64,000 nt of DNA from Owenia fusiformis (GCA_903813345.2 CAIIXF020000001.1:29574001-29638000); one strand, 5' to 3'. Counted from the first letter of the stretch, positions 574 to 34,300 are shown. Notes: a model not told the origin generated them from the sequence alone. Made by a program: numbers and translations.

Positions 574-1650
574 TTTTGCATGGAACAAAAAATGATTATA
601 AGTAATTGTTTATATGCTGGTTCTGATAAGAGTTTTGAATATACTGTTTATAGATAGTGGGGATGGTCACATGAGATTCTACTTCTAATACAAGTCAAGC
701 TAAGTTCAAAATACCATATTCATTCTATCAAAATACTTGCACACTTTTCAGGATAATGCAAACCAGCAAAAATAAGTAGTTTGGGCACATTTTGGAACAC
801 TTATGGTAATTCATTAGAAATTGCTAAAAGAGCAGTGGTAGGTAAATGGGACCTTATGGCTATGTGTTGACAGACTTATGAAGACATTTCACAAGTGTGT
901 ATCAAATTAAAGTTAGATTATCATCATTCAAAGTCTTTTTCAATGGCAGATCCCTTGATCTTTTCGTGTCTGTTCCATGGATCTGTAATCTTCATCCCAT
1001 AATCAGACCATTACTTGTAGATTTAGACCAGCATGATCACTTGTAATGTTCTGGATAGCTACCTCCTATGGATCATCATTATCTAACCGAGGGTGTACCA
1101 CTTAGTACTCCACTTGATTAGCTACACTATAAGCTATAATAATTAATATAATAGACCATATAAATTCACATTACTCTATATCAATAAGGCACACAAATGA
1201 AAGTTGACATTTTTACTAGCCATGGATGAACACATTCTGATGACCCCTTGGATTTGCCTCAAGTCTCTGGTCACCCCCCCCCCCCCAGGATCACCCAAAC
1301 TTAATAGTAAACTATAAGATCTGACAACATGAGTAAGGAATGATGCAAGCTGGATGACAATAACTTGTTTGACATTGCTTAGTTACCAAATGGTGCGAAA
1401 GTAAGATCATTCTTGCATAAAAATGAAATGACTAAGTTAATATTTAGTTCCATGTACAAAAGTTACTTTCCTGTGTACATTTACAATTTCACCAGATCAT
1501 TGGTAAAACTGAAGAGAAGAAATCTTATCAAATGACACATCCCTGAGAACAAATCTGTCAAAACTCAAAAACCAAAACCAAGCACTTTATCAGTGATTTT
1601 CTCCTGAATAAGACATATCAATAAGCATATAAGCAAAACTATCAAAGAAA

Positions 1651-3264
1651 ATGAGTGAAGAAAAGAAATTCTCTAATAAGGGGTTGACCTTTCAACTCTA
1701 TCTGAGAGGAAATGAAGTAAGAAAAAATGAAGTTCTTAGAAAAATGAGATTCCTCAAGGAAAAATCGCTTTCTAAAAAGTTGTCAAATAACACTGACGTA
1801 ATTGAAGAGGCCCTTGATTTTTGGATTAAAAATCATTCAAGAGAAACTGAAATGGCACAATCAGCATCGCAATTGGTCATCAATCAGGACTTTGTACCAC
1901 TTCAACCATTTTCCTCTGTTTCTAAGGATGACACAAACGAATTGATGTTTTTAACAACAACAAGTGCCATAAACCTTCTTGTAGCACAATCGAGTCATCA
2001 CCAAGAACTATGTAACTCCACTCTTCAATGGGAGAACAGTACAATGCATGGGCACGTCGCCATTGCTAATCTTAGATGTGAGCATGGACATAATATAAGA
2101 TGGACTTCATCCCCATACATGGCAAATGCTCATTTTCTTGTTAATTATAGAGTGTTCCATGGTTATATTACATCTGGGATGATACCTTCAAAGTATGAAC
2201 GATTCTCTGAAGGTGCTAACATTGGCACCATGTCCCAAAGCTATTTGGACAATCTTACAAAGGAGTTCGCCAATATAATTAAATCTTTGAAAAATGAATC
2301 ATCTGAGAACGCTGTCCAGTTGGAAATTGGGATGTATCCAAACTAAGAAGAAGGAATTACCATCATGACAGATGCTAGACACGGTTGCAGAAAGAACGCT
2401 AAAGACTGTGATATAGTTTGCATTGGTGAAAAAACTCATCAAGTCTTGCATTCAATCCATGTTACAAAGAGAGATGATCCCTGTTCACAGCGACATGAAA
2501 CATTCGGCACACGCAGAATGTATGATGATTTTGAGAGGCAAAATGTGTCTATTGGTACACACGTTCACGATTGTAATGGTGCTGTGAACTGCCTTGTGAG
2601 AGATACTCAGATATTTACGGACAACCAAAATGACTCATGGCACGCCTGCATTGCTTTGAAGAAGCAAATTCAAAATGTTGCATCAGGGCCCAAGTATAAG
2701 CATGGTCAATCATGGCATGCTCAACTGGAAGATAAACCAGAAGCAATAAGGAAATTTGCTTATACAGCCATGAAAAATTGTGGCGAGAATGCAGAAACAT
2801 TGAGAAACATGCTGGCAAATATGACTGAACATTTCCAAAATAATCATCAAAACTGTTTTGATCAATCTCGCTGTCGACTAGATCCAAACTATGAACCAAG
2901 TACAATTGTTGTGAGAAACGATGTTGCTATTCGACTATTAAATGATACAATTAAAAAAAGCACAATCTATAAAAATGCACATAATTACACAAAGGCGCTT
3001 TCAACAGCATATGTTGAAAGTTTTAACAATACACTAAACATGTTCCAGGATAAACGGATTTACTTTCAAGATATTCAATATGAAATGAGGACAAATTTAG
3101 CTGTATTATACTGGAATGAGAATGTGGACAGGGCTTATACAAGCTTGTTCGAATCAGAAGCCCCAGACATTCCCTTCAAGCACCCCAAAAAAGTTCTAAC
3201 AAAACCAACATATTCCTTCAGAGAAAACATTTGGGAAAAACTGATTGAATCAGTTTATACCTAG
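1651..3264 (+). pseudogene. DDE transposase (Kolobok-like) interrupted by one in-frame TAA at 2344-2346
   Basis: ORFs 1651-2346 and 2365-3264 share a frame (..GMYPN*EEGITIMTDARHG..) and fuse to about 537 aa. Motifs: HxxxC...CEHGH zinc-finger-like, TDARH (D1), HVHD (D2), NDSWH (DxxH), TAYVESFNN (E). Confidence 0.8.
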
Positions 3265-9500: not shown

Positions 9501-11261
9501 TTGAAATCGAATAGATTTTATTAACTATAAGAAACCTTAAAAGCTTATTTAGACCTGGTCTTCGAGCCAGCCATATTAAGTTTTTCTGAATAAAACCGTT
9601 TGCAAAGACGTAAATGGTCTCTAGGGTCAGTTATGTTCTGGTATAAATCTAATTGTTACGCATTAGAATGGAGATGAATATTGTGAAATTGCCTTGAGTC
9701 ATTAATGGGATCCAGATATTCTGATGAGGCTTCAGTTAGATGTTTGCTTGTTCGATGAGATAAATTACAGTCCAACCTCAACTGTTTGTCTTCTCTAATA
9801 AGCAACTCTGGTTTTTAACAGACAGATTCTAATTTTAAATTTTATGTCACATAGTTTTATAGTTTTTTGTGGATGCCGGTTGGCATTTGACGGGTGTCGT
9901 TCGGCATCTGTAACAAATGGCAGGTAGCGACATTTCGCATGCCAGTGCCTTGTTTAACTTTCCCACAAGCATTCATTTGATATTTGATGTCCAGGATATA
10001 TTAAGTATTTAATTGATTCTTATTATTTCAACTGAAATTGAAGTTGGAATTAATCAAAAAAAATTTACTGTAATTTTAATATGGAATGATATTAGAATAC
10101 TCCTTTATTGCAACGATTTTGTTCATTGATGAGTACAATGTACTTCCTTGTGTCAGATCTGATTTTTCAGTATTCGTTTTGTTATAATGTTTAGGCTGAG
10201 TGTTGCTGTCAATAATGAAATGCAAAACTGTACATATCATTTATTTTCCATTGTACTGAGATTAGAACCCTTTTATATCCTGAGGGAGTTTGAATAATGA
10301 TATCAATTCAGTGAAATATTTTAAAATGTCACATGGCATTGCCGAGTGTCATATGTAAAGAGCTTTCAATATATTCTATTTATAATGTTCTTCCAGACAT
10401 GCAAGGGGAGTTTACAACTTACAATATACACATAACCAGGACAACAACGCCCTAAACACAATACAGAGAAACAGAAGAGAGAGTCATTCCAACTCTATTG
10501 ACACCAATGATAATAACAATACACACAGTTCAGATGTTGATGACACAGATGGTGTAGATCACCATAGTGCATATCTAGATGACATTGAACCAACAGAACA
10601 ATCAGAAATGTCTCAGCAGCAGAGCTCTGATTCGCGTTATAATTTGCAAGTTGGATTATTGAAGCGCCCCATATACAGTAGCGAAGGGAGGATAAATCGT
10701 ATCGATTTAGTTCGGGATTTGGACACAAGAGTGACATGGCGTGACAGTCACACTGATACAGCCTCTGAAACAGACAGCTTCAAAGGCGATGTACAAACTG
10801 ATTCAGCCAGCAAAACTGATGATGTCATAGTACGTCGACGTCCCAAAACATCGAATATCATACGTTCCAGATCTGATCTTAGTCACCGCCATTCCCATAA
10901 CAGTTGTGATCTCTCAGAGGGGAGTTCGAAGATCTCACGAAATAGCGCTGATCTTGATAAATTCTTTAATGAAATGGGACTCGATAGAAGGGTACTTGAC
11001 CCAATGTTAGGAGGAAAATTGGATAAGATTGAATGCGTGGAAAGTATGAGTTCATTAAACTCGCGTTGTGCTCGAAGCCAATGTAGCGATGTTAGTGAGT
11101 CTAAATTGAGTGATAATGTATTAGCTCTACCAGAAGAGGCGACCTCAGCGACACCAGAACGTAGAAGTTCCTGCCACACATCAATTATAGAGAAAAATGC
11201 TCGTATTATAAAATGGCTATGTAGTGTTAAAAAGGCTAGATCTCATAGTACATCAAACTAA
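6542..11261 (+). CDS. FAM110: FAM110 family protein, join(6542..6665,10397..11261), 5' exon(s) not located
   Basis: Exon 6542-6665 (cataG|...AG|gtgag) encodes RRKSAVELLEASKHQYVKS (FAM110 N motif). A phase-2 splice to ttccag|10397 keeps frame with ORF 10608-11261, which has RSRSDLS, DLDKFFNEMGLD and SIIEKNARIIKWL (FAM110 C motifs). Confidence 0.9.
9192..9307. repeat. Tandem duplication, 2 x ~57 bp (intronic)
   Basis: TGAAAAACATTGAAAGCCATCCACGTAAATAAAATGAAACTGAATGTT starts at 9192 and again at 9249. Confidence 0.9.
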
Positions 11262-19949: not shown

Positions 19950-20053
19950 TTAAATAGATATTTTTCCAAAAAGGTAATACTAGACCTGGTATGCTACCAA
20001 AATTCATACAAAATAATGTGTGACTACTGAAATATATCCACTGATATTTAAGT

Positions 20054-20444
20054 TACTGTACTCAGGGTATTGTTCACTTGCAATTTAATTTCGCTTTGTT
20101 CGCAAATGTAGTAAAATCGCGAACAATTATTGTCACAAGATTTGGCTTTGAATCCCCAGGGATTTGACCCGGGAATTTTGATATGTTTCGTTCGGTGTAA
20201 AACGTTCCGTATGTTAACATGGGGTATTGTTCAATTTTATATCAACAATTTATGTACTTGGTAAGTTCATGCATATGTAAAAAGGCATGTAAGTATATTA
20301 ATATTACCATATTATCAATATGGAGTTTACAGAGCTGGAGGAAAAAATTCAACTTGTGCAATCCGCCAAATGTCATCAACTCAAATCCGCGAAATTAAAT
20401 AGCCGCGAAATTTTAAAGCGTTGAAATTTACCACGAGTACAGTA
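20054..20444. mobile_element. MITE with TACTGTACTC...GAGTACAGTA ends
   Basis: Terminal inverted repeat plus internal TTTCGC/CGCGAAA repeats. Confidence 0.65.
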
Positions 20445-21630
20445 TTGTCCTGAAGGATAGAGGTTAACTTAAAACGAACCTTATGACCAAGACACTGCCT
20501 GACAGAGAGCTTTACCTGTTCACTATATCCCATCAGTTCATTGGGATAATAAATACAACTTTGTGACGTTAATAGTTAACAACTTTAATACACAACAAAT
20601 CTCAACATGGTCCAAATATTAAAATAATAAATATACATACGTGTATTTGAATATGATAATTAACATGATAAATATAAATATTCAAATATAAAAAAGTGAA
20701 ATATAGTACAGTATTTACAGTTAGGGTATGACACAGAAATACCTTCATGAACATGGTATACACTTTCAATTTTAACTTGCGATACAACCTGAACTTAGAT
20801 CCCTCAATACAATAACAATAAAATAATTGTCATCATTATCTCACTACCATGTTTCTCTTCCTGTGATTGGTTGAACATATATCACATGTCCTATGACATT
20901 TCAGTGATACCATGTGACGTTACATTTCATTGGTAGATAAGTGAGCCTCTTTTTGAAGGATGAATCTTTCTTACACTTCTTTTTACATTCCTTTTCCAGA
21001 ATGAATCCCTCTAATATGAATATAAATAAGTCTCATTTGAAGAGCAAATATTTCCTCCTTTTCATTTTTAATATCCCTTATCCCTTGTTACAGAATGAGA
21101 AACATAACAGTGAATAAAAAACAAATACTTCATTCTATTTTCAGGGAAAACCTGTGCCACTTTCGAGAATAATTTAATTGTGAAATTTCATATTGGTATT
21201 TCTCTTAACAAAACAAAATATTTGTGTATTTTGTACAGTATACATTGTACATAGAATATCAGGTCATTTTGAGAGATATCAATTTTGCGGAGTTGATATC
21301 AAATATCATTAGCTTTTCACAAGTAATCTAGTGGTATTGTTTTACATAGCTCTTATCAAAAAGGCAATGTCTGTATTTAAATCATCCAAAATCACTAAAA
21401 TTCATCTTTAGTTTGTACTTTAGAGAATTGAGTATGAACTTACTTTTTTCAAAAATAATTGTCAATACAAAATGTATATACAATGTACACCAAAGAAAAC
21501 AGTATGAAGCACAATCAAAATACCACACATGACTTGAAGTAAAATTATCATATCTCCAAAATGGTGCTTTTTTCTCAGTAAGTCATGTACCCAATGGTAA
21601 GTGATGTTGTGTGTTTGTTTATCAGCATAT

Positions 21631-24600
21631 TCACCTTTTGAAAGGTATTTGGAAGTTTTTGTGCAGTGGACCTGGTCTTGAGTTTTTGGAGAGGCCAAGT
21701 CTGATAGATCGAGGACACGTCTTCAGAGGGGTGACATTATTCAGTGACTCTGGAGCACCTGCAAATACAAACAATCAGTGTTTGCATATATTAGTCTATA
21801 TCTTAGTGATACCACAATGACAATACTATTAGTTATTGAATGATTTGAAGCGCAATACAGGATATATTCTGCTCAAGAATATCGAGACAGAATATATCCT
21901 GTATTGCACTTCAAATCATTCAATAACATTTTTATCGTGTGATCCTCTGTATTGCTACTGAGATTGTCCCCTTCGTACCAACGGGGACAATCTCAGTAGC
22001 AATACAGATTGGTACAGCACAAGAACTGACCAATCAGAGGGCTTCATTTTACAGATCATACGATAAGTTCAGATGTTACGTTACACAACATATGATACAC
22101 TTTCGAATTTTAACAAGATATTATCATCCAAAATGTCACCACTTGTCATTTCAGGGGCGTAGCCAGCTTTTAGTCGGGGGAGGGGGGGGGGTTATCGCCA
22201 AAAACATTCGATTTCAGTCATGGGGGTGTGATTTCTTTTTACAAAAATTGATGTAACTTCCTTCAAACTTGAGCTAGAAGCTTCAAATGAAAAGCATTTT
22301 AAAGCTCTTTTCTTCCTCTATCTAATGGTTATATCTGTATTGCTTATGGGAGGGGGTGCGCCTATGCATTTGTTACAGAACATCAACTGAATAATACTGT
22401 CCACAAAAAGGTTGGAGACTATAACAGTATGTCAGCACTTCTGGTGGTGACATAATAAAAGCTATCATTCATTAAAAACAATGCAAAATAGAATGAAATC
22501 TGTGTAGTCTAGGGGCAAGGGGGGGGGGGGGCACAAGGGTTTGTAGCTAGACTTGAATCTATGTTTAAATAAATAAAGAATCCATGAAACATTAATACAT
22601 TTAAAATTATAGCAACAGTGCATGTTTTAGGATAATTCAATGCAAATATTAAAAGTGTGTGGTCCAACTGAAGATGCTACTTGATATCAGAGACTGTTGA
22701 TATATAGATGACCTGCAATACAATATTCGATCCACATCAAACAATTCAATATTAGATAATTAGACCCCCGATAGTGTTTTATTTGACGCTTCCTTTCTCT
22801 TAGGTGATGTGACTAACTCAATAAGAGCTTTCAGTTGGAAGTGGAGATTCATATAAAGGCTATTACTTATGCATTAATTCCAAGATGTTTTCCTTTGACA
22901 AGCCTGACAGCCCTGAGGAATAAAATTAATGTTATTGGAATGGTATTGATACTTAAACTGTTGTTGGTATTAGTACAAATAGAACTTCAAGTTTTATTAC
23001 ATTATGTAGCGAAACACCCACTCAGAATATGGGTCTACATGTACAATCTGCTAGTAAGTGACCATAATATGATTATATATCACTTCAATAACAAGCCTGT
23101 AATGATCTACTTGATGCAATATTCAACATCATGAAAGACAATTTGAGCAGAAATTATTAATTAACACATGATCTTGCACCTCAGTAAGTGAAAATTACCC
23201 AGTCTATGATTGGCTCGCACACTGCCCTCTGAATAAGAGCAATATTCTTAAGTTTGGAATTTAACCAATCAAGAGCATTTCATACCCACAATAATGTTGG
23301 CTTCTCCAAACATATACAGAAATTGCAGAGGCTATGCAAAGCCAATGTTCTGATTGGCTTATAGAAATTTATTGCCAATTAAGAGTATGACACAAAGTAA
23401 GTAGATGACTCTTGTGAAGAGTACTAATAAGAGGTTGTCAGTCATGAACTAAAATATAATTGAAGTAGAGAGAATAACGTGATACTGACCAATATACTAT
23501 GATGATGCTTAAAAGGTATAATGAAATTTGAGCTCATAATTTCCTGTAGACTTGCAATAAGTCTTATAATTAAATACTAAAGTTGAATGGAAACTGTATA
23601 CAGCACTTAGCTGTGTGCAATTTTCACTTATAAGAATTCACTTACATTTACATCGACGATGTAACATTCTAAGAATTGCATCACAGATCTAAATACTTCA
23701 TTCTGATTGATCAAACGGAGGTATATAACTTATACAGGTTACCTATGAAGAATTAAATAGCCTACTGTTTTCATTGAATCAACTTTCATTTTACTGTTGA
23801 CCTTGACCCCTAAGTTCAGTCAATCTTTGGTGAGGTGAGGTAAACAATTTTTATTGATAGTATATAAAAGTAATAATAAAAATAATGACAATAATTTAAA
23901 GGTAACATATGGAATTTATGAACTCCTCTTTTGAGAGCCCTTCAAAAGCAACATATGCCATAATTTATAATGGTATTGGTCTGTTGGTGGTTATTTTGTT
24001 ATCTTGATTCTCAAGGTTTTATAGCCGCTTGAAATTCGAAGATTGTAATACTGTAAGAAAGGTCAGTACAGTCTCCAGGGAATGAGGTAGTTCTACTGTA
24101 TGCATCCCTTCTGGAATCTAAAAAAATTTTTGAAGAAATTAATAACAAAATACCATGCTTCATCTGGATGACAATCTGGGACTCTCGAATTTCACAAATT
24201 AAATTACTCAGAAATGCTCAGATTGCACTAAAAAGCATTTTCAAGAGATACTAGACCATCTCGATGTGGCAAGCTACCTTTTTTGATGGGAAATTTTGAA
24301 AAACACATAAACTATTACAAAAACAGCTTAGCAAGCCTGTAGATCAATATGATCTGAGATGCAAGTATGACCATGAATATGAAAAAGTCCAAGCATAATG
24401 TCATCACAAATAATAGTTCAACTTTCTGTTTCTTTACTCGACCCCAATGCCATCTTTTAAAATGTAAGAGAGTAATACACACAAGTTGTGAGTAGCAAAT
24501 TGAATGGCATACCAAGGCAGAATGATGGTTAGCTTACATTATGGGATTAAATTAGTCAACATTAGTTTACTTACACGAAGAGCCAGGAACAACTCTATCT

Positions 24601-27600
24601 GTAGTAGATGAAGGTGGGTGTCTCCAGTGGAAGGCACTCGCAACAGACTTCACCTGGTCAACATCAGCTGAAATAAAGTTGACATGACACAGTCTATATT
24701 GACCAGAGGGAATCAATGGGATAACTGTATTATTCCGGAGGGTGTTGTTATGAAAGGTATAGTGTGTCAGTATTCACTTTACCCTATCATGCAAAGATAA
24801 TGTCTTCCAGTCCAAAGATCAGACCGAATTTGATTACTTTTCTCTTGTGATACATTTTTCTAGACTAATGGCTTTGATTTTGGTATATCACCTAAAGGTT
24901 AAATCTTTGCAAACACTTTCAACATTATCAAGTGAGTAAACTAGCCCATCGTCTATCAGGAAAGCGATTAAACTCACTCAGCGCACGTCTAGGGTTAAAA
25001 ATAAAAATTATGTTTTGTAGCATTGAGATTTGGTTCAGTCAGTTGATATTATTTATTAGGGAATGTTTAGTAATTTTTGTTTTCCTCAAATATTGTCCCT
25101 TGTGTTTTCTAACCTGCCTCCTCTATGCTACCCTGACTGTCATGTTCATCTACTGTCTGGCATTGACTTCCTCCTTTATCATCCATCAAGTCTGCATCAC
25201 ATGCATACACCTTCCCTCCTACAAATGATAGACAAACAATAGTAAATGAGCAATGTACACCTAGATACTCCAACCTTAAAATGTCATCCATGGCTACTAC
25301 CACAATTCATTTCAGTACACTTTTCACATGCAAGAACACAAACCATCAAACCAGAGCAGGACAGAGCCAACAGCCTCAGGCCAACCTCAGGCTATACATA
25401 TTGAACATTTTACAGGTAGATAACAAAATGAAGGGCTAACTAAAAGCAATAAATCTTATATTTGTAGACTACCAATACCTCATACATTATCTTGATAGAC
25501 GAACCCAATATATAAATAAAAGAACTGAGCTTACTTCTCCACACTCAAGATGAATTTTCTTTACTTTGGGCCTAAAAATACCCTCATTGGCACTTATTTC
25601 CAATACCTCATTGATGGTGGTGACATAAAATGATCCTCAAATTTTCAAAGAGACCTTTCCATATTTTCAAATAGGGCAGAAAACTCTTTGTAATCTAAAT
25701 TAAATAAATACCATTTAATTCTCCATAGAAAGACTCCTCATGATTAAAGCTGATGTCATCTTGAAGGAGGGTATGCTGCTCTACAGTGGTGTCATCTTGG
25801 GACTGTGCAATGTTAACAAATCCAGGTACCTGCAGGTATATAGGTGCTCATATTACTTGGGCATACTTCTGCTTTATACATATACGTACAGGGGTTTGGT
25901 TTCTTTTCCTCGGTGATCATTTTGTACACAAGACTTGAAACATCACTAAATATAGTACATTTTTGGATACTCACATGTTTATTAAAAACAGAAACATTAT
26001 GTTCTAATTCTCCCCTGTTTCAATCAATTTGTCAATATGAAATCAGAGTCCTATTGTTATCAAGAAAGTCTAAAATTGTATTGTACATGATGTATTGTTT
26101 CTGTAAACTTTCTGTGTCACCCTTTGTGAAGGCCAATAGAGAAAAAGATACAATTATAAAATCCAGACTTTATTTCTTACCTGTTGATCCTTTGGCCCCA
26201 ACTCTGTTAATTCTGGCGTCGTAGAATAATCATCTTCTATGGCTCTGACCTTGGGTGGAATTACTTCATCTTCAGTATCATCATAAGTTGTTTTCCTTTT
26301 CAGGTTCATCTCATGAATGAACTCACTGCCTTTAGATTGTTCACTATGTTTATTGTTAATATCACTGGCTGAAGGATTCTCATCAATGCTCCCCTGTGAC
26401 AGTCTTTCAGACAGTACATGTGAAGCTGTTTGAAACTGAACTGTTGTTAATTCGACTCCCTCATCATCTGCATCATCACAAGGAACATTCATATCAGTTC
26501 CTGGATCAAGGACATCACTGGAACTAGAGCTACTAAGAGATCCAATAATTGGTGAATAGCTGATTTCTTCATCATTTATATGATAGGGAGATCCTGTATT
26601 TGGTTCAGCATTAAATCTATTGGCAAAGTCAGAATTGGAGTCTGTTGGATTTAACTCCTGCTCAGTTTGATAGATGGTACTGTGATCATTCTCATCATCT
26701 CTACATAGTACAAACTTCTTGTGACCGGATTCAATGTTATCTTGCTCATCACTACATTCATTACTTTTCTGAGCATAATCAGGATGGTCTGCAGTGAGCT
26801 TTTCTAAACATGTTTCTATAGGGTCCATATGGTATGGAACATCTTCAGATATCAATGTGATCAGCATTGCTCGTATAGTTTGACTGATAGAAACACTATC
26901 GATAATGGGAGACGCCTTTTCCTGACTCATCTCTTTGATGTTGTCATCTTTGGGGAGCTCTATGAACATAGGACACACTGCACAATTTCTAGGAAAATCA
27001 AGTTTACGTTTTACACCCTTATGGTTTGCGATTTCAGAATCTGCACCTTGACTGATTGAATTTGGCTCATAATCTCCAGTATAAGGGCCATCCATCTGCT
27101 GATTTGTTGTATTAATATCACTTATATGGATATTGTTCTCATATTGGGCAACTGTAGTCTCCATGTAATTCCTTGCAGAGGCTATCAATTCTTTAACTTT
27201 GTTTTCTTCATTCTCTGAAGCCTTGTTTTCTTTCTCAGTTGAAATTATGTTTTTAACTTCATTTGGAGTGGTTATGGCTTCCCCTTGATGCCTCTTAGGT
27301 GCCATTAGATCCAGAACTTCATTAATATTTACTTGATACTCCGTAGTTGCAGTAGTACCCTCGAATTCTTTTTCATTGTTTACTGCAGTTATAGCTTCTC
27401 CTTGATCTTTCTCAGATGCTACTAAGTTTTCAACTTTATCTTTATTATTCGGAATAGAAATATTTTCTTCTTGATTTTTCTCAGAAACTTTTATACTTTT
27501 ATCAATTTCCTTTTCATTGTTTGCTGAGGCCAAAGCTTTGTCTTGATCTTTCGCAGATGCTATTTTATTTCCAGTCTCATTTTCATTGTTTGCTGTTATA

Positions 27601-29371
27601 TTCTCATGTTCAACTTTTTCAAAAATGATTTTAACATTTGCAATATTTGCTGTGGTATTATTTTCTTCTTGATCCTTCTCAGTTATAATCATGTTTTCAA
27701 CTTCATATTCAACATTTGCTACAGATTCAATTTTGTCATCTTCATTTAGTTTGACTTTTCTTTGGTTGTTCATTGTTTTCTCATACATCACATCTCCTAC
27801 TCTGTTGATCACATTTTCTAAAAACAAAACAACTTTATCAGAGTCATTTTCACCAAGTGATGGCTCTTGAACCTGAATCTCATTCTGATAACAATCTGGT
27901 TGTGAAACAATTTTAACTTGAGTAAGTTCTAACTGGATTGACTGAACTACAGCTTTGGCTGGTTTGGGAAGGAGTTCATCTCTATTATGCTGAACAGTGT
28001 TGGCAACTTCATCTGTTATATCCTCTAGGAATTTTGAGGCAGTTTGAACTGCATTAAGTTGATGACACTCTTCATTGCCTTCTCTAATATCTTCTTCCTC
28101 TTGATTAGGCTCACTCATATCTTCTTGTATTTGTTGTTCAATTTTGTCTTCAAATTGATCATGTGGTATTCCTAAGGGCTGGTGTGCTAGACTCATATCA
28201 GCCATTTTAAAGAAGTCGATAGCTGCTGAGGAATATTTTGTCCTGTCGTGAGTAGAAATGTTTTCAACGTGTTCCACTTTGACAGAAATATCTTCATTCA
28301 CTTGCACTTTTTCTGAATCAGCCATTTTATTATCACTTCCAATCTTATCATCACTTTCAAGCTGATCATCACTTTCAATCTTACCATCACTTTCAAGAGA
28401 ACCCAATGTATGACTGCTTTGCTGTGAAGATTTCTCAATTTTATTTGTCATTGTTATCAAAGACGTTTCATCTATTTTCTTCACCATATTTGTTAAGACA
28501 TTTTTCACTCCATCAAAGATGTCTTCGAACATTGCTGTTGATTTATTTGAATCTAGAATCTCATTTACATCATCATACATTTCAACTTCTGGTGATTTGA
28601 CAACTTCTTCTGTTGATATATCATCTTTAGTTTGGATTATTTCAGCTGAAATTGTGACTTTTGACCTTTCATCAATGACACTATCACATATAACATCCCT
28701 CCTTTCACATATGGCTTCTGATCCTTCAGCCATGACATTTTTCATTTTGTTCATTGGAAATTTTTGTTCAGCTTCATCTGCTGTATTGCTTATGGCAACC
28801 ATGTCAAAACATTTGTTGGTAGGTTTTGTGTTCTCTTCTATATCAACCATACAGCTCTTACCTGTTGTAATGGCTTCCAATACACTATCAATTATACCAT
28901 TCACTATATCACATGATTCAGTACAGACAGTTGTACCTGTAACATCTGGTACAGAATGAGCACTGAGCATATCGAATACTATAGCAAAGGTTGCTTCATT
29001 GTCAGCTGATCTTAGATTACTTAACAATACTGCATCAACCCGCTGTAACTTTGGTTTATCACTCGAAGCTATGGGTATGTTATCATAAGGTTCTGTGTCT
29101 TCCATAGGTTCAGTGTTATCTAAAGAATATTGGCTAATTGTGTGTTCCTCTTCAATGACTGGAGATGAGATATGGACGGATAAATCACAATCATTGTTTG
29201 TCTTTTGTTGCCCTGAAGATCCTTTTAGTTCAGTCATGTTTAAATCATTATCAGCTTTAGTATTTATGGAGTTCTTTTGTTGGTGAACATACACATCATT
29301 CTTCAGGGTTGCTTCAGATTGATATATATCACTTTGATGAAATAACGACACTGAAAGGTATTTATTCTCAT
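21631..29371 (-). CDS. RAD51AP2: RAD51AP2-like protein: exons 29371-26181, 25829-25712, 25218-25114, 24667-24575, 21758-21631 (stop TGA 21633-21631)
   Basis: All junctions are GT-AG with consistent phases (0,1,1,1). The last exon reads CAPESLNNVTPLKTCPRSIRLGLSKNSRPGPLHKNFQIPFKR*. As recalled, human RAD51AP2 ends ..[29 protein letters not shown]... The giant exon encodes >1000 aa of acidic, low-complexity sequence. Start is uncertain: ATG 29237 gives ~1166 aa and ATG 29420 gives ~1227 aa. Confidence 0.75.
21832..22008. repeat. Two adjacent near-perfect hairpins (21832-21927 and 21946-22008), probably a non-autonomous element
   Basis: GTTATTGAATGATTTGAAGCGCAATACAGGATATATTCTG pairs with CAGAATATATCCTGTATTGCACTTCAAATCATTCAATAAC. 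TCTGTATTGCTACTGAGATTGTCCCC pairs with GGGGACAATCTCAGTAGCAATACAGA. Confidence 0.85.
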
Positions 29372-30382
29372 CTGAAAAAAAAATTGTATAACTTATACCA
29401 CGGTTCTCTTGAAAGCCCATTGGATTACTAAGGATGCATGAAGAACTTTATTCTTATTCTGGAGGTTACCAAACAAATTTCCAAAAAGCCATTTATACCT
29501 CTATCAGATGACACAAAGGAATGGATTAGAATCTTATAAGTCAAAGTTTAGATTTGTTTCAATTGAAAAAGTAGACATGCAAAATTTGAAAACCAATACA
29601 CCCAAGAGAAAGCCCATGTTAGTAGAAATTACTGCTGAAGCTAGGATTCCTAAAGGGAGGGAGTAGTGAGGCAAACTTTTTATCAACGAGGGAAACACAC
29701 ATCTAGGAATTCACGTGGGGGAATGAAGAGAGACATTTTTTTTTGTAAATGAGGCAAATGTTTTTGTCAATGAGGCAAGTACCTATATAGGGTACAGTCA
29801 TGGATAATGGGAAGTTCTCCATACATCTCCATGTTAAGCATCTTGAATCATAATTCATAATTAGCACTATCGAAAGGTTATACTAATATCCCGATCACCT
29901 CTTATGTGTTTTGAATTTTTTTGTCACTGGATAAGACCAAATCTGGTGATTCAAAATCTGAAGCGGGAAAATATTCAAAATGGTGGCATTTGAATTTGTA
30001 ACTTTGACATCCTTTAGATCGGACTGTTCACTCATGATGGATGGAGCAAGGAACAATTCTTAATTCTCCGATGTGGTTCATTAGACAAGAGCAATAATAT
30101 AGAATTGTCACGGTCATATCAGGATATCACGATAACACTACCACGGCACGGTCATGGCAGGATCCTTGCGAAACTTAAAAACACTGAATAACATGGTGAC
30201 GGTTGTGCCAGGTATAAGAAACAGATAGAATGCAAGTCGAGATGTATTTCCGATAAGAGACATGTATGAATGCAGTCTGCTGCAGTGCAGACGAAATTTT
30301 TCTTTTCCAAATCATCAATAGAATCGATGATCAACGCATTTCATCCTTCCAATGTTCCACGTCAATGTGAAAACATACTTAC

Positions 30383-30625
30383 TAAAATCTTAACATCAAG
30401 TGGAATAACTCCTTTCACACGGAAAGCTCGCCAAAAGAAGAAGAATTAGAGAAAAATATTTTCAAATTTCGTACCGGAAGTAGCTTGGATCAAATTAAAC
30501 CGGTGCATTGTGGGCATTTCTTGCTGAGAGAAACAACAGAAAAGTGACAAATATTTCTTTCAGTAATTGGCTATTTACCACAAACGTACGTGTTTATTCG
30601 CCTATTCCATTATCGCAAGTGACGG
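30383..30625. promoter_or_regulatory. Putative bidirectional promoter and first non-coding exons of the RAD51AP2-like (-) and CYRI (+) genes
   Basis: ETS site ACCGGAAGT at 30473-30481 and STAF/ZNF143-like TGCATTGTGGGCA at 30504-30516. Outward-facing GTAAGT donors lie at 30626 (+) and 30382 (-). Local CpG enrichment. Confidence 0.55.
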
Positions 30626-31010
30626 GTAAGTGCATTGATTATATACATAGAGCTGAAACAGTTTGGATTTTCATGATTTTAATCATTATGAGCGTTCAAA
30701 TATTGAGAATCTGAACTGAGATTTCTTTGGAGTTTATTTTCTCTAGGCTAGAGCCTAGGGCAAAGATGTTTCATTCTATATTCTACAATGAGTGCTTCTT
30801 ACCCATGTTGATCTACTGTAAATGGATAAGGACTTTCTGATAATTCAGTTTTGACAGTTACGGTGCGGTAGTCATGGAATTCAATTTAGATCAAGTATAT
30901 CTCTGAACAAGTTGAAAAGTTTTCAGGATTTTCAAGTGACATTTTGCCAGCCTGTCAGATTTTCATTCTCGCAATAACAAAATCCAAGTTTTCTGCTTGT
31001 GCCTGTTTCA

Positions 31011-31305
31011 TACCCTTTGTATTGGTCATTCGACTTTGCTTCTTAAAAGAGAATTTCGTCTTCACTCTTTCAGTTTACAATAATCTCTGAACTGAGCCAT
31101 TCTCATAGAAATACAGGCGACTTTCTATATGTAGTAATTTCCTCTGACATCATCACATAGTTATGAGCACGCATTTAGCATGTGTTCAAGCTCACTGATT
31201 GGTTGAGAAATGATCAGCTTGGTAGGTTTGAAATGATTTATGACCTGGGCTGCAGTCATGGGCATAGGTCGGTAGAGGGTAGTTTACAACTCTGCACGCA
31301 GGGAA
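31011..31305 (-). mobile_element. Older, diverged copy of the TACCC 9-bp-TSD family
   Basis: TACCCTTTGTATT...CTTCTTAAAAGAGAATTTCGTCTTCACTCTTTCA...CTCTGCACGCAGGG; CTGTTTCA on both flanks. Confidence 0.7.
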
Positions 31306-34300
31306 CTGTTTCACTATTTCAAGAATCTCTATCAAACCACCTGACATAATTTTGTTTAATTATTCATTTTTAGCAAATCAGCCATTTTACTTATATTTCA
31401 GCCATTTTATTTGCTAGTGTCTACTGTTAATACTGGCGGTTATGTATTTTATATTAAACGTTGATGGTTTTGCAAGATGTTCTCTTTGTCCCTTTCAGAA
31501 ACCAGACAGATTATTGCATAAACTTAGAATATGCCAAGTTGGTACACTTGTACCATATTTTTTTTAAGCTTATAAGACCCATATACATGTATATTCCATC
31601 CATTTAAGCTTAGAGAGTCGAGTCTGCAGAAATATTACAGATGTTACCAATTATTGTTCTTTTATTGTTTCAAAATTACTGTTGAAATACAAATTACAGT
31701 ACTAGCACTACACAATTATAATTATTAGGTTTAACTACTCACAATGGCAGTAAATTGATATTTTTACTTGGTTGATTATTAGATTGTAACATTATGACAT
31801 TTCTCTCTGCCTCCCATGTCTATTGTCTCATGTTACAATAATTGATTTTATGGCAGATATATGTCTGCATTTCTTTGTAGCATACAACCCATGAGTTTGA
31901 TTTTATCAATATTCTTCCTGGTTTGCTGGTTATGTTGTTCCCGCAATATTCTTTCTATATTATGTTTGGGAATATTGTAACAATTCCCAATCATGTAATA
32001 AATATCAGTGATTTCCCCAGTGCTGCACTAGTACCTTGTCATTCTGATACTCATCACATCTTTCTGTTTCACATGAGAGAAGAAATGAGATGTCATGGTT
32101 TTAATTATGATACCTTGTTAAAATCTGAAAATAACATGGTACCGTATTGTAGAAAATCTGTCAAAGGATGAAAAATAGAGATATTAAGACCAAAATCTAG
32201 TAAAATTAGGATTTAGCACCCTCTTGAAAAAATCCTGGGTGTTAGATCAGTGAATACATTATCTGAAATTATCATTCATCTAACTATTAACTGTATTTTG
32301 TTCAGCAATTCTTGTTATATAGCATAATGATCTTTGGGTCTCATTTATACTTGATTTATGTGCTAATCAGGCGATGCATGTCACATAGAAGTTTATGACA
32401 GATCAATAGTTGAGTTGCGGGGAAAGAAGCTTGGAACGACTATCTCCTCATCCAAAAGGACTCGTTCATTATTTTTCAGTCATAAACTGACCAAGTAGGG
32501 GGAACAAGTACACCAGTAATTTGGAGCTGGTAAATTGGTACTAACTGCTGACAACATTCTGCTGAGTACTGAATTATTGGAAGTTGATTTGTAAATCTGG
32601 TAAAAAAATATTTTCAACTCAAAGAACAGTAAAACCTGGCTGTATAAGTAGAATGCCTTTGGTACCTCAACAAGTGTATCATTTATGGATGTATAGTAGA
32701 AAGAGCTTTAAGTTGAACACCTGTAAGTAGAACACCTTACAATTGGAACTTGTGGCCCATTGACTCCATGTTGATGAAGTTCCCTGTAAGTGGAACACCT
32801 CGCACTTTTTGTGGTCCTGAGGGCCACTTATACAGGTTCTACTGTATTCTACTTGATAGGTTTTACTGTATCTTGTTAATTAGGAATTAAAGAGGAAGTC
32901 AAACAGTTGTTTGTCTTTCAGTGTAGTACATGATAGTACATTGCACTGTAGTTGATCAGCATGTATAGAACTGTAAAAGAAGCAGTAAAAATAGAAGTGG
33001 TCCAAGTTGTGGAGAAAACCTGAGCTAGAAATGGTTTGAAAAGTTCAACCAGAAGTTTTTTAAAATGGATGGAAGAAATTTGTCTGAAATCACTTTTCCA
33101 ATCATATAATTTTAAAATGCTTGAGCTAACACTTATGTATATCTGGCCATATTGTTTAATGCAGCTTAAAACTTAATGCAGCTTAAAACTGACTTTTAAA
33201 TGTCAGCCATTATTGATGCCGAAGTTGACCATATTATTATTCAATGTTCTCCTTGTGTCATTGTCAATACCACGATGTCCAAACTATTTGCTACACCACT
33301 AAAAAAATTGTCCCTAGCATGAGAAACTTAAATTAGGCCTGCCATGAAACTTCAAATAGATATGTACAGCTCTTGAATACTATCACTAGTATTACAGGCC
33401 ATGTCTTTGAAATGTCACCATGTCTTTTCATATATGATAAAAACTTACTGTCCCAAAAGAGATAAAACATGTGTCTTAGTCTCTTAGATAAGTTCAATGT
33501 ACAGGATTTTACTCCTAATACTAATACTAAGGAAGTACTTGTGCCATATGGCTATATACATGCTGCATCATAAAGTTGTAAAACTGTAAAACACCTGATT
33601 AAAAAAAGTTTTTCATTGCTTAAGGTAGTGATTCATTCATACATTGTTTGTTGTTTGTTAATATCAGAAGAACAAACATATAAGGCCTGTGCGACCCGAA
33701 AAGCAGATATATCAAATGTTTATAGTTCAAGTTTTCAAATACAGTAGTTTAGTTTAGTTAAACACAGTTGCCACAGTTGTATTGAATTTTATTTTCTGGT
33801 GAGTATGTTTTTAGCGTTGGTTTCTTCATCCATGGGTCAATAGTATAATTGGTCATGTTTTCTTGGGGCTATACATTTACTATAGAAATGAGTATGTTAT
33901 ATTGTTAGGGACAACACAATATCAGTTTTTCATGATTGATCAATAACTTTTCTTTTAACCACATTTTGTATTAAAGTTCTGAATATTTCCTTACATGGCA
34001 AACAATAGGTTCTTGAATACTCTTCTCTATAATAAAAATTCTGCTTGAGACGAGATATTAAACTTATTATCACAAATATAATTATTCATACATTCTGAAG
34101 TGAATCAAGTCGACTATCAGTCTCTATTATATCTGATTGCTGTAGCAATTGTCTTTCAATATGATTCCTTAAGAGGTGCATAGAGCCATCTCCATTTCAA
34201 TTTCTCATGGGATTTGTGGATACAAATAAATGCAAAGGCAGGCGAGATGACCATTATACATCCCAATGTGATTATGTGGATATTATAAATTTGTCTATAT

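What the first reader, a model, noticed from the sequence alone, without database searches (positions are those of the whole stretch)
21631..29420. Hidden RAD51AP2-like gene in an apparently invertebrate genome
Seen: the anonymous 1088-aa ORF is one giant exon that splices in phase through three small exons to a terminal exon absent from the ORF track, encoding VTPLKTCPRSIRLGLSKNSRPGPLH. Knowledge (recalled): RAD51AP1 and RAD51AP2 share a C-terminal RAD51-binding R(L/I)GLS....LH motif; RAD51AP2 has PLKTCSRPIRIGLS, about 1160 aa mostly from one huge exon, is meiosis-specific and was described as vertebrate-specific. Inference: this is a deep RAD51AP2 ortholog (~1166 aa from ATG 29237), which would make this meiotic recombination cofactor much older than vertebrates. 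It is easy to miss because only ~30 aa are conserved.
Basis: partly seen in the sequence, partly recalled or inferred. Interest (0 to 1): 0.85.

Follow-up and report, generated by a model that had tools for sequence, protein, structure and literature searches.

The report
Annelid RAD51-binding-motif gene, already annotated
This is a real gene of the marine worm Owenia fusiformis: a long, acidic, mostly unstructured protein ending in the short peptide that vertebrate RAD51AP1 and RAD51AP2 use to hold the DNA-repair enzyme RAD51. It is already in public databases, and its claimed one-to-one match to RAD51AP2 could not be shown.

Summary
A 3,057-nt exon (29237..26181, minus strand), three small in-phase exons and a terminal exon (21758..21631) translate to 1,166 aa. 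That protein is letter-for-letter identical to the public Owenia fusiformis protein CAH1774203.1. A second public isoform of 1,117 aa skips the third small exon, and UniProt already names it "RAD51 interacting motif domain-containing protein". So the host is an annelid, and the gene is not hidden.

The terminal exon matches Pfam PF15696 above its curated cut-off (35.5 bits against 25). It keeps every residue that the RAD51AP1-RAD51 cryo-EM work calls critical (R-L-G-L-S, then L-H), with the same 6-residue spacer (PMC12704761). Membership of the RAD51AP1/AP2 motif family is therefore well supported.

Orthology to RAD51AP2 in particular is not shown. Only about 30 aa are comparable, nothing else in the protein matched anything, no vertebrate RAD51AP2 sequence was available, and the host genome could not be searched for a second family member. 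The giant-exon layout resembles RAD51AP2; the Tyr-Leu-Lys tail of RAD51AP2 is absent. My RNA lay showed weak minus-strand transcription but no junction reads.

Interest is modest.

The parts
26181..29237 (-). Giant first coding exon. It is 3,057 nt (1,019 codons) from the annotated ATG at 29237 to the donor CAG|gtaaga. It encodes an acidic, low-complexity, probably disordered region.
   Evidence: Identical to residues 1-1019 of P0005. No Pfam family at E<=10. The whole protein has pI 4.4. AlphaFold2 single-sequence mean pLDDT is 32.3, with 0 of 1,166 residues at 70 or more.
29238..29420 (-). In-frame upstream extension of the same open frame, up to an alternative ATG at 29420. It is not part of the public models.
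   Evidence: frame open to 29447. (contexts CCAATGG at 29420 and AACATGA at 29237). RNA depth in bin 29350-29683 is about 0. Which ATG is used is not decided here.
28327..28396 (-). An 18-nt tandem repeat (3.9 copies) inside the giant exon. The 1,117-aa public isoform lacks 54 nt here (18 aa). The missing piece is bounded GT..TA, so it is not a canonical intron and is probably a repeat-length allele or an assembly artefact.
   Evidence: TRF; alignment of the model to P0001.
25712..25829 (-). Small exon A (118 nt, phase 0 to 1): VPGFVNIAQSQDDTTVEQHTLLQDDISFNHEESFYGELN.
   Evidence: Present in both P0001 and P0005. Its RNA bin 25676-26009 has reads in 2 of 3 RNA runs.
25114..25218 (-). Small exon B (105 nt, phase 1 to 1).
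   Evidence: Present in both isoforms. Its RNA bin 25008-25341 has reads in 3 of 3 RNA runs, only as first_mate_on+. Reads cover position 25189 in X17 and X19 (table 3).
24575..24667 (-). Small exon C (93 nt, phase 1 to 1), an alternatively included cassette. It encodes ADVDQVKSVASAFHWRHPPSSTTDRVVPGSS, which holds the protein's only tryptophan.
   Evidence: Present in P0005 (1,166 aa) and skipped in P0001 (1,117 aa). Its RNA bin 24340-24673 has reads in 3 of 3 RNA runs, while the neighbouring intron bin 24006-24339 has none. One search gives W as 0.1% of residues and a single [FW]..PP match.
21631..21758 (-). Terminal coding exon (128 nt including the stop at 21631-21633, phase-1 acceptor). 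It encodes the whole RAD51-interacting motif.
   Evidence: One X19 RNA read in the sense orientation covers position 21672 (table 3).
21658..21747 (-). Match to Pfam PF15696 RAD51_interact (profile positions 8-37 of 39).
   Evidence: E=1.1e-8, 35.5 bits, cut-off 25. In the full proteins the scores are 29.7 bits (P0001) and 30 bits (P0005, residues 1123-1158).
21685..21705 (-). IRLGLSK, the counterpart of human RAD51AP1 Site-M (332-LRLGLSR-338).
   Evidence: Alignment to PDB 9qnc_B and 9qn8_B. Site definition from PMC12704761, section 9. Coordinates.
21661..21666 (-). L-H, the counterpart of RAD51AP1 L345-H346 (Site-C) and of RAD51AP2 L1143-H1144. It lies 6 residues after the Site-M block, as in human RAD51AP1.
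   Evidence: Mutagenesis from PMC1636435.
21832..22008 (.). Two near-perfect hairpins in the last intron: 40-nt arms at 21832-21871/21888-21927 and 26-nt arms at 21946-21971/21983-22008. They belong to a high-copy repeat, not to the gene product.
   Evidence: In one search, depth in bins 21668-22335 is 42-122 on both strands in the RNA runs, about 94% of laid reads run on into unlike sequence, and there are many irregular joints.

Best explanation
This is a genuine, transcribed and already annotated gene of the annelid Owenia fusiformis. It makes a 1,166-aa protein, and a 1,117-aa isoform that lacks the 31-aa exon C.

Nearly all of the protein is acidic (pI 4.4) and predicted to have no stable fold. 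The last 26 residues are basic (net +7) and carry a RAD51AP1/RAD51AP2-type RAD51-interacting motif, encoded entirely by the short last exon.

Inferred mechanism, by analogy with the solved human RAD51AP1-RAD51 filament complex:
- Six residues later, L-H would sit in the shallow groove used by RAD51AP1 L345/H346 (Site-C).
- This would tether the long acidic tail to RAD51 (possibly also DMC1) filaments and stabilise or modulate them during recombination.

Shown here: the gene structure, its identity with the public models, the Pfam family match, and conservation of the key residues and their spacing.

Inferred: RAD51 binding, and any role in meiosis or repair.

Not decided: whether the gene is orthologous to RAD51AP2, to RAD51AP1, or to a single ancestor of both. 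What the acidic 1,100 residues do is also unknown.
For: Gene and host:
- A 1,097-codon open frame, chance about 3e-37.
- The five-exon model is identical to CAH1774203.1 / A0A8J1XZT4.
- Isoform CAH1774204.1 / A0A8S4MZ13 matches at 98% identity.
- The Owenia annotation was built from RNA-seq evidence (STAR, StringTie, Trinity, Mikado, PASA), and 99.29% of its transcripts have RNA-seq support (PMC9977687, methods passage).

RNA lay:
- From 24340 to 29349, reads in the three RNA runs lie only as first_mate_on+. The tool notes that in most stranded libraries the first mate reads the strand opposite to the RNA, so this points to minus-strand RNA.
- The bins holding exons B and C have reads in 3 of 3 runs.
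- The intron-only bins 23004-23337, 24006-24339 and 25342-25675 have none in 3 of 3 runs.

Family:
- PF15696 at 35.5, 30 and 29.7 bits against a cut-off of 25.
- With the 41-aa exon as query, the only 2 PDB sequences found at E<=10 are both human RAD51AP1 (E 0.14 and 1.1). The alignment is LKTCPRSIRLGLSKNSRPGPLHKNF against VKSPNQSLRLGLSRLARVKPLHPNA.
- Residues shown by structure or mutagenesis to matter are all kept with the same spacing: RAD51AP1 R333, L334, L336, L345, H346 (PMC12704761 section 9), and RAD51AP1 R316/L319/L328/H329 with RAD51AP2 L1134/L1143/H1144 (PMC1636435).
- The motif sits at the extreme C-terminus and is wholly encoded by a short last exon, as reported for both human genes (PMC1636435).
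- The last 55 residues hold 5 R, 4 K and 1 H against 2 acidic residues. Human RAD51AP2 has 7 R, 5 K and 3 H against 1 acidic residue (PMC1636435).
Against: - The comparable part is only about 30 aa.
- Single-sequence searches do not reach any vertebrate family member with significance. phmmer against 1.84 billion representatives gave the protein itself plus 3 unrelated tandem-repeat proteins.
- Three word-based searches of 5.8 billion proteins gave only the protein itself.
- With a 73-aa C-terminal query, the best PDB hit was unrelated: beta-dystroglycan at E=0.0048, ahead of RAD51AP1 at E=0.41. This shows how noisy that level of similarity is.
- The whole protein finds nothing in the PDB.
- The protein is strongly acidic. 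From recall, not tested here, RAD51AP1 is a basic DNA-binding protein.
- No RAD51 binding was tested.
- No junction reads appeared in my lay, and RNA depth over the gene was at most 1.7 in any bin.
Confidence: 0.85

Rival explanations
1. One reading: a true one-to-one ortholog of vertebrate RAD51AP2. The layout of giant exon plus terminal motif exon, and a meiotic role, would then date back to the bilaterian ancestor.
For: - The architecture resembles human RAD51AP2, which has one very long exon, then two short exons, the last encoding the motif (PMC1636435). Here there is a 3,057-nt exon, 2-3 short exons and a motif exon.
- The sizes are similar: 1,166 aa here against 1,159 aa in human.
- No similarity to RAD51AP1 was found outside the motif.
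- Upstream of R-L-G-L-S the worm has CPRSI. RAD51AP2 has an essential SRPI tetrapeptide that is highly conserved in mammals (PMC8754306).
- From recall, not tested: a FAM110-type gene lies 10 kb away, and human FAM110C and RAD51AP2 are both on chromosome 2p.
Against: - No vertebrate RAD51AP2 sequence could be obtained, so no reciprocal search, tree or giant-exon comparison was made.
- The Tyr-Leu-Lys after L-H that human, mouse and chicken RAD51AP2 share is absent; the worm has KNFQIP.
- SRPI is not conserved as such; the worm has PRSI.
- The giant exon has no detectable relative anywhere.
- Long disordered exons arise easily, so the layout may be convergent.
- Similarity to RAD51AP2 within the motif could simply be the ancestral state.
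- Expression in meiotic tissue was not tested.
Confidence: 0.25
2. A descendant of the single pre-vertebrate gene from which RAD51AP1 (with NUCKS1), and perhaps also RAD51AP2, derive. It would be co-orthologous to both, with the large acidic exon being a lineage-specific expansion.
For: - RAD51AP1 and NUCKS1 are described as paralogs (PMC4787752, abstract). From recall, such paralog pairs imply a pre-vertebrate ancestor.
- A sea-cucumber genome paper treats RAD51AP1 as a gene of an echinoderm and reports it as positively selected there (PMC9700323). So family members outside vertebrates are already annotated under the RAD51AP1 name.
- The worm's Site-M, spacer and Site-C align residue for residue with human RAD51AP1.
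- The giant exon contains a length-variable repeat (the 54-nt difference is) and short recurring motifs.
- In one DNA run, contigs over the giant exon differ from the window about as much as intron contigs do (13/603 and 12/574 against 27/1237), though with 0 gaps against 7 (table 8). This fits fast, frame-preserving evolution.
Against: - No RAD51AP1-like N-terminal or DNA-binding region was detected.
- There is no canonical [FW]xPP (WVPP) site.
- The protein is acidic rather than basic.
- Whether Owenia also has a short RAD51AP1-like gene is unknown, because no genome is held.
Confidence: 0.45
3. Independent assembly: the phase-1 terminal motif exon was joined to an unrelated long acidic ORF in the annelid lineage by exon shuffling. 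The likeness to RAD51AP2 would then be convergent, and only the last exon would be homologous to the vertebrate genes.
For: - The only homologous part coincides with one exon. The Pfam match in P0005 starts at residue 1123, about where the last exon begins.
- Human RAD51AP1 and RAD51AP2 themselves share nothing but that exon (PMC1636435), so this module has been combined with different bodies before.
Against: - There is no positive evidence of shuffling: no donor copy and no flanking repeats that define a transfer.
- The strict motif occurs only once in the 64-kb window.
Confidence: 0.15
4. A chance resemblance: the C-terminal peptide is not a RAD51-binding motif.
For: - The motif is short.
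- Single-sequence hits are no better than noise.
Against: - The profile score is 10 bits above Pfam's curated cut-off (E=1.1e-8).
- All five functionally mapped residues and their spacing are kept.
- The position (extreme C-terminus, own exon, basic patch in an otherwise acidic protein) matches the family.
Confidence: 0.03

Closest known systems
Human and mouse RAD51AP2 (Kovalenko et al. 2006, PMC1636435; Ma et al. 2022, PMC8754306)
   Same: [quoted passage not shown]
- The last exon encodes a basic C-terminal RAD51-binding motif whose essential Leu and Leu-His are all present here.
- No other recognisable domain.
   Different: - Three (or two) short internal exons here, instead of one before the last.
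- No Tyr-Leu-Lys after L-H.
- PRSI where mammals have SRPI.
- No demonstrated similarity in the long exon.
- Expression pattern unknown.
- RAD51AP2 is described as vertebrate-specific.
Human RAD51AP1 (PDB 9QN8 and 9QNC; Kuhlen et al. 2025, PMC12704761)
   Same: - The C-terminal Site-M (LRLGLSR against IRLGLSK) and Site-C (L-H) have an identical 6-residue spacer.
- The protein is largely disordered.
- The motif is encoded by the last exon.
- With the 41-aa exon as query, both PDB sequences found at E<=10 are RAD51AP1.
   Different: - RAD51AP1 is 335-352 aa and has DNA/RNA-binding sites and a WVPP Site-N.
- The worm protein is 1,166 aa and acidic (pI 4.4). It has no [FW]xPP; the nearest thing is HWRHPP in the optional exon C.
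NUCKS1 (described as a RAD51AP1 paralog, PMC4787752)
   Same: Belongs to the same wider gene family according to that paper's abstract.
   Different: From recall, NUCKS1 lacks the RAD51-interacting motif. No similarity to it was tested here.
BRCA2 TR2 / FxPP and BRC FxxA recombinase-binding peptides (PMC11229353; PMC12704761)
   Same: - Short linear peptides in disordered proteins that dock on RAD51/DMC1.
- RAD51AP1 Site-C shares a binding site with TR2 (PMC12704761).
   Different: - A different sequence motif.
- The worm protein has FQTAS at residue 935 and WRHPP at 1108. Neither matched the Pfam BRCA2 repeat or any other family.

Membership tests
RAD51AP1/RAD51AP2 motif family (Pfam PF15696 RAD51_interact) | Profile match above Pfam's curated gathering score | tested here: met
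   35.5 bits for the exon alone, 30 bits for P0005 and 29.7 bits for P0001, against a cut-off of 25. PF15696 is also precomputed for P0001.
RAD51AP1/RAD51AP2 motif family (Pfam PF15696 RAD51_interact) | Motif at the extreme C-terminus, wholly encoded by a short last exon | tested here: met
   The terminal exon 21758..21631 encodes residues 1125-1166, and the Pfam match covers 1123-1158. The feature is stated for both human genes in PMC1636435.
RAD51AP1/RAD51AP2 motif family (Pfam PF15696 RAD51_interact) | Site-M core R-L-G-L-S (RAD51AP1 R333, L334, L336; RAD51AP2 L1134) | tested here: met
   IRLGLSK aligns with LRLGLSR of 9qnc_B. Residue roles come from PMC12704761 section 9 and PMC1636435.
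RAD51AP1/RAD51AP2 motif family (Pfam PF15696 RAD51_interact) | Site-C Leu-His (RAD51AP1 L345/H346; RAD51AP2 L1143/H1144) at a fixed distance from Site-M | tested here: met
   P-L-H is present, with 6 residues between the K of IRLGLSK and the L, as in human RAD51AP1.
RAD51AP1/RAD51AP2 motif family (Pfam PF15696 RAD51_interact) | Physical binding to RAD51 | not testable with these tools
   No eukaryotic RAD51 sequence could be obtained. The complex predictor takes only references from bacteria, archaea and phages, so no job was sent.
RAD51AP2 (orthology) | One very long coding exon followed by a few short exons | tested here: met
   A 3,057-nt exon, then exons of 118, 105 and (optionally) 93 nt, then a 128-nt terminal exon. 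Human RAD51AP2 has one long exon and two short ones.
RAD51AP2 (orthology) | Sequence similarity to vertebrate RAD51AP2 outside the motif, or a reciprocal best hit | not testable with these tools
   No RAD51AP2 sequence was returned by any tool. The giant exon found only itself among 8,000 scored candidates. The exon peptide found no vertebrate protein.
RAD51AP2 (orthology) | [quoted passage not shown] | tested here: not met
   The worm has LHKNFQIPFKR. The feature is from PMC1636435.
RAD51AP2 (orthology) | SRPI tetrapeptide required for RAD51 binding, highly conserved in mammals | tested here: inconclusive
   The worm has PRSI at what appears to be the corresponding place. SRPI is from PMC8754306. 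Its exact alignment could not be checked without a RAD51AP2 sequence.
RAD51AP2 (orthology) | Expression restricted to meiotic tissue | not testable with these tools
RAD51AP1 (orthology) | WVPP-type ([FW]xPP) Site-N upstream of the RAD51 motif | tested here: not met
   There is no [FW].PP in 1,166 aa. The only near match is HWRHPP in exon C, with one extra residue. The 73-aa tail did not align to Site-N of 9qn8_B.
RAD51AP1 (orthology) | Small protein (about 335-352 aa) with DNA/RNA-binding regions | tested here: not met
   The protein is 1,166 aa with pI 4.4. Every 60-residue block is net negative except the last 26 residues. No similarity to the full-length RAD51AP1 chain was found outside the motif.

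The most novel reading that the evidence does not exclude
The worm gene is a genuine pre-vertebrate RAD51AP2. On this reading, a giant-exon, disordered RAD51 partner specialised for meiosis already existed in the bilaterian ancestor alongside a short RAD51AP1-type gene. The optional exon C would then be an alternatively spliced second recombinase-docking site: it holds the protein's single Trp in a WxxPP context, placed where RAD51AP1 has its WVPP DMC1 site. That would let one gene switch between RAD51-only and RAD51+DMC1 engagement.
Probability: 0.15. Interest if true: 0.6.

Novelty: new member of a known kind. Interest (0 to 1): 0.3.

Why it matters
Reviews and primary papers still call RAD51AP1, RAD51AP2 and NUCKS1 vertebrate-specific (PMC3401455; PMC1636435; PMC4787752). 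An annelid protein with an intact Site-M/Site-C peptide shows that this way of docking onto RAD51 predates vertebrates. The worm version of the motif could also serve as a comparison point for separating essential residues from replaceable ones.

The gain is limited:
- The protein is already in NCBI and UniProt with the motif annotated.
- An echinoderm RAD51AP1 has been mentioned in print (PMC9700323).
- The more exciting claim, an ancient meiotic RAD51AP2, remains open.

In the papers searched I found none describing an invertebrate RAD51AP2. The search 'RAD51AP2' + 'invertebrate' gave 2 papers, both on mammalian germline by title. 'RAD51AP1' + 'invertebrate' gave 17 papers. Of those I read passages of PMC9700323, which bears on this, and PMC11229353, which does not; the others I judged by their listings only.

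Tried and rejected
Searches for relatives that found nothing useful:
- Word-based homolog searches, 3 of 3 used. The giant exon gave 1 hit (itself) among 8,000 scored candidates. The C-terminal 78 aa against proteins of similar length gave itself among 15 candidates. The 41-aa exon against longer proteins gave itself among 2 candidates.
- Exhaustive phmmer with the 41-aa exon gave 4 proteins at E<=0.001: the protein itself and three tandem-repeat translations with no RLGLS..LH. I rejected those three as noise.
- ESM Atlas, twice: no usable hit.
- PDB with the whole protein: 0 hits.
- PDB with a 73-aa tail: the top hit was beta-dystroglycan (E=0.0048), rejected as chance; RAD51AP1 came second.
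- Metagenome scan with P0005: 28 pattern matches, none confirmed.
- Earlier findings of this scan: nothing relevant by words, place or sequence.

Steps that failed outright:
- The window's own genome is not held, so I could not ask whether Owenia has a second PF15696 gene.
- A PDB chain id is not accepted by protein comparison.
- The 41-aa query is too short for the search for related loci.

RNA and structure:
- The look-up of sequencing runs listed no holder that is on record as RNA.
- X4, guessed to be RNA, covers introns and behaves like DNA (table 8).
- One search listed no junction for this gene.
- The single-sequence AlphaFold2 model was too poor for a fold search (mean pLDDT 32.3), so none was run.
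- No complex prediction was sent, because no eukaryotic RAD51 was available.

Surroundings:
- Pfam scan of 10 further window ORFs, looking for syntenic neighbours: 0 families.
- Rfam on 20000-31500: 0 matches.

Literature:
- One literature search was badly posed and returned nothing on RAD51AP1.
- The phrase 'RAD51 interacting motif' gave 1 unrelated paper.

Leads considered and not adopted as findings: FQTAS at residue 935 as a BRC-like FxTAS core, and HWRHPP as a Site-N analogue. Neither has profile support.


Full report
**1. Is it there?**

Yes. Translating the region stop to stop shows a 1,097-codon open frame at 26154..29447 on the minus strand. It also shows a 47-codon frame at 21631..21774 that ends ...VTPLKTCPRSIRLGLSKNSRPGPLHKNFQIPFKR*. 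At the window's base composition (about 34% G+C), an open frame of that length has probability about 3e-37.

Reading the minus strand and checking coordinates in scripts gives five coding exons with canonical splice sites and matching phases:
- giant exon 29237..26181 (3,057 nt, donor CAG|gtaaga)
- exon A 25829..25712 (118 nt)
- exon B 25218..25114 (105 nt)
- exon C 24667..24575 (93 nt)
- terminal exon 21758..21631 (128 nt including the stop)

The joined CDS is 3,501 nt and encodes 1,166 aa with no internal stop.

**2. Whose gene is it, and is it hidden?**

The giant exon finds a single protein among 8,000 scored candidates: P0001, 1,117 aa, 98% identical. NCBI lists it as 'unnamed protein product [Owenia fusiformis]', and UniRef as 'RAD51 interacting motif domain-containing protein', with PF15696 precomputed.

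Its 90% cluster has one more member, P0005 (CAH1774203.1 / A0A8J1XZT4, 1,166 aa). My five-exon translation is identical to P0005. P0001 (CAH1774204.1 / A0A8S4MZ13) differs in two ways:
- It skips exon C.
- It lacks 54 nt inside an 18-nt tandem repeat at 28327-28396. That gap is bounded GT..TA, so it is more likely a repeat-length allele or an assembly artefact than an intron.

The gene is not hidden: both isoforms and the motif annotation are public.

The Owenia annotation was built from RNA-seq evidence (STAR, StringTie, Trinity, Mikado, Augustus, PASA), and 99.29% of its transcripts are RNA-supported (PMC9977687, methods passage).

**3. My own RNA check**

No listed holder of the stretch is on record as RNA. 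I laid three raw RNA-seq runs of the same species label (X17-X19, about 6-12% of each run read) and one contig set (X4) on 21000-31000.

- Depth over the gene is very low, at most 1.7 in any bin.
- From 24340 to 29349 all RNA reads lie as first_mate_on+ and none as first_mate_on-. By the tool's own note on stranded libraries, this points to minus-strand RNA.
- The bins holding exon B (25008-25341) and exon C (24340-24673) have reads in 3 of 3 runs. Exon A's bin has reads in 2 of 3.
- The intron-only bins 23004-23337, 24006-24339 and 25342-25675 have none in 3 of 3 runs.
- One X19 read in the same orientation covers position 21672 in the terminal exon.
- No junction reached the listing threshold, so the four junctions are not directly shown by my data.

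X4 covers introns, so it behaves as DNA. Its contigs differ from the window as follows (table 8):

| Region | Differences | Gaps |
|---|---|---|
| Giant exon (two contigs) | 13/603 and 12/574 | 0 |
| Intron | 27/1237 | 7 |
| Around the terminal exon | 2/402 | 0 |
| Around exon C | 2/336 | 0 |

This hints at fast but frame-preserving evolution of the giant exon and more constraint near the 3' exons. It rests on one run and small numbers.

**4. What is the motif?**

The terminal-exon peptide matches Pfam PF15696 (RAD51_interact) at E=1.1e-8 and 35.5 bits, against a curated cut-off of 25. The full proteins score 29.7 bits (P0001) and 30 bits (P0005). Neither the giant exon nor exons A-C match any Pfam family.

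Against the PDB, the only two sequences found at E<=10 with the 41-aa exon are both human RAD51AP1 chains (9qnc_B at E=0.14; 9qn8_B at E=1.1). The alignment is LKTCPRSIRLGLSKNSRPGPLHKNF against VKSPNQSLRLGLSRLARVKPLHPNA.

The paper behind those entries (PMC12704761; passages and section 9) defines two sites:
- Site-M, 332-LRLGLSR-338. R333 pairs with RAD51 D50. [quoted passage not shown]
- Site-C. L345 and H346 sit in a shallow groove at RAD51 D184/Q145.

Kovalenko et al. (PMC1636435, passages) showed that RAD51AP1 R316A, L319Q, L328A and H329A, and RAD51AP2 L1134Q, L1143A and H1144A, weaken RAD51 binding. The worm keeps all of these positions (R, L, L, then L-H) with the same 6-residue spacer.

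The motif is at the extreme C-terminus, is encoded entirely by a short last exon as in both human genes, and is the only basic patch in the protein. The last 26 aa are net +7, and every other 60-residue block is net negative. The strict motif pattern occurs once in the six-frame translation of the window.

I regard family membership as well supported.

**5. Limits of that evidence**

The comparable part is about 30 aa, and only the profile sees it.
- phmmer with the exon against 1.84 billion representatives returned the protein itself plus three tandem-repeat translations that lack the motif.
- The three word-based searches returned only the protein itself.
- A 73-aa tail query put beta-dystroglycan (E=0.0048) above RAD51AP1 (E=0.41) in the PDB.
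- The Atlas gave nothing, and a metagenome scan gave nothing.

So no other family member, and in particular no vertebrate RAD51AP2, could be obtained.

**6. The rest of the protein**

- pI is 4.4. E, D, S and N make up 37% of residues.
- The single-sequence AlphaFold2 model has mean pLDDT 32.3, with no residue at 70 or more and only isolated helices. This fits disorder but does not prove it.
- Short recurring elements exist. [FLM][FL]E[DN][IV]x[DNR]x[VK] occurs three times (residues 236, 403, 472), each inside a predicted helix. EK[DN]Q[EG]E occurs three times.
- Two recombinase-motif look-alikes are leads only: FQTAS at 935 (a BRC-like FxTAS core) and the single Trp in HWRHPP in the optional exon C.
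- The RAD51AP1 P-motif is KWVPP (PMC11229353; PMC12704761). The worm has one extra residue between W and PP. No [FW]xPP exists in the protein, and the tail did not align to RAD51AP1 Site-N.

**7. RAD51AP2, RAD51AP1 or neither?**

For RAD51AP2:
- The layout of a giant exon plus short exons matches.
- The size is similar.
- No RAD51AP1-like regions were found.
- CPRSI sits where mammals have the essential SRPI (PMC8754306).

Against or neutral:
- SRPI itself is not kept.
- The giant exon has no detectable relative.
- Such exons evolve and expand quickly.

For a RAD51AP1-type or pre-duplication origin:
- Site-M, the spacer and Site-C are collinear with RAD51AP1.
- RAD51AP1 has been treated as an echinoderm gene in print (PMC9700323).

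The deciding fact is whether Owenia also has a short RAD51AP1-like gene. It was out of reach because no genome is held. My odds: co-ortholog or pre-duplication descendant 0.45, RAD51AP2 ortholog 0.25, independent exon capture 0.15, chance 0.03.

**8. Mechanism**

Inferred: the basic tail docks on RAD51 protomers through Site-M and Site-C, as in 9QNC. This tethers a roughly 1,100-residue acidic disordered arm to the filament. By analogy, binding would stabilise the filament and its L2 loop (PMC12704761).

What the acidic arm recruits or repels is unknown. Alternative inclusion of exon C directly upstream of the motif might tune a second contact. None of this was tested.

**9. Known or new?**

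The literature calls RAD51AP1 and RAD51AP2 vertebrate-specific (PMC3401455; PMC1636435). In the papers searched I found none on an invertebrate RAD51AP2 (2 papers, both mammalian by title). Only PMC9700323 bears on an invertebrate RAD51AP1 among the 17 papers; I read passages of that one and of PMC11229353 and judged the rest by their listings.

The databases, however, already hold this gene with its motif. I file it as a new, unpublished but database-annotated member of a known family. Interest is modest; it would rise if the census in the next steps shows an ancient RAD51AP2 lineage.

Supplementary tables of PMC9977687 (expression) and PMC9700323 (Table S15) could bear on this and could not be seen.

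Noticed in passing
window 10386-11261 (+): A 291-codon open frame matches Pfam FAM110_C (centrosome-associated C terminus) at E=4.9e-19 and 69.9 bits. It is probably a single-exon FAM110-type gene, about 10 kb from the 3' end of the RAD51-motif gene and convergent with it.
   Followed up: partly
window 1633-3264 (+): Two adjacent open frames (237 and 305 codons), separated by one stop, match the two halves of Pfam Mutator-like transposase (E=4.8e-6 and 0.0027). This looks like a decayed MULE-type transposase.
   Followed up: no
window 52040-53848 (+): A 602-codon open frame contains a reverse transcriptase domain (RVT_1, E=2.8e-35). It is probably a non-LTR retrotransposon copy.
   Followed up: no
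window 21668-22335, last intron of the gene: A high-copy repeat with two near-perfect hairpins: 40-nt arms 98% complementary and 26-nt arms 100% complementary. In the three RNA runs it reaches depth 42-122 on both strands, against about 1 for the gene. About 94% of laid reads run on into unlike sequence, so the reads come from many genomic copies. No Rfam family matches. It could be a MITE-like element, or possibly a source of hairpin RNA.
   Followed up: partly
window 30018-30351: A second short stretch has very high contig depth in X4 (about 15,700) and RNA reads on both strands. It is probably another dispersed repeat just upstream of the gene. No Rfam match.
   Followed up: no
P0005 residues 236, 403, 472 (window about 28532, 28031 and 27824, minus strand): The motif [FLM][FL]E[DN][IV]x[DNR]x[VK] recurs three times (MFEDIFDGV, FLEDITDEV, FLENVINRV). 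Each copy lies inside a helix of the low-confidence AlphaFold2 model. It may be a repeated short interaction helix in an otherwise disordered arm.
   Followed up: no
P0005 residue 935 (giant exon) and residue 1108 (exon C, window 24575-24667): FQTAS resembles the FxTAS core of BRC repeats. HWRHPP holds the protein's only Trp and lies shortly upstream of the RAD51 motif, where RAD51AP1 has KWVPP (PMC11229353). Neither has profile support.
   Followed up: partly
window 21672 (terminal exon): A C>G difference on the + strand appears in the X4 contig and in one X19 RNA read. It changes Gly to Arg in the spacer between Site-M and Site-C (RPGPLH to RPRPLH). This is a polymorphism at a position that also varies between the worm and human motifs.
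   Followed up: partly
window 1-609 (-): An open frame of 203 codons runs off the window's start and has no Pfam match at E<=0.1. It is Cys- and Trp-rich near its end. It may be an exon of a neighbouring gene or part of the transposon next to it.
   Followed up: no
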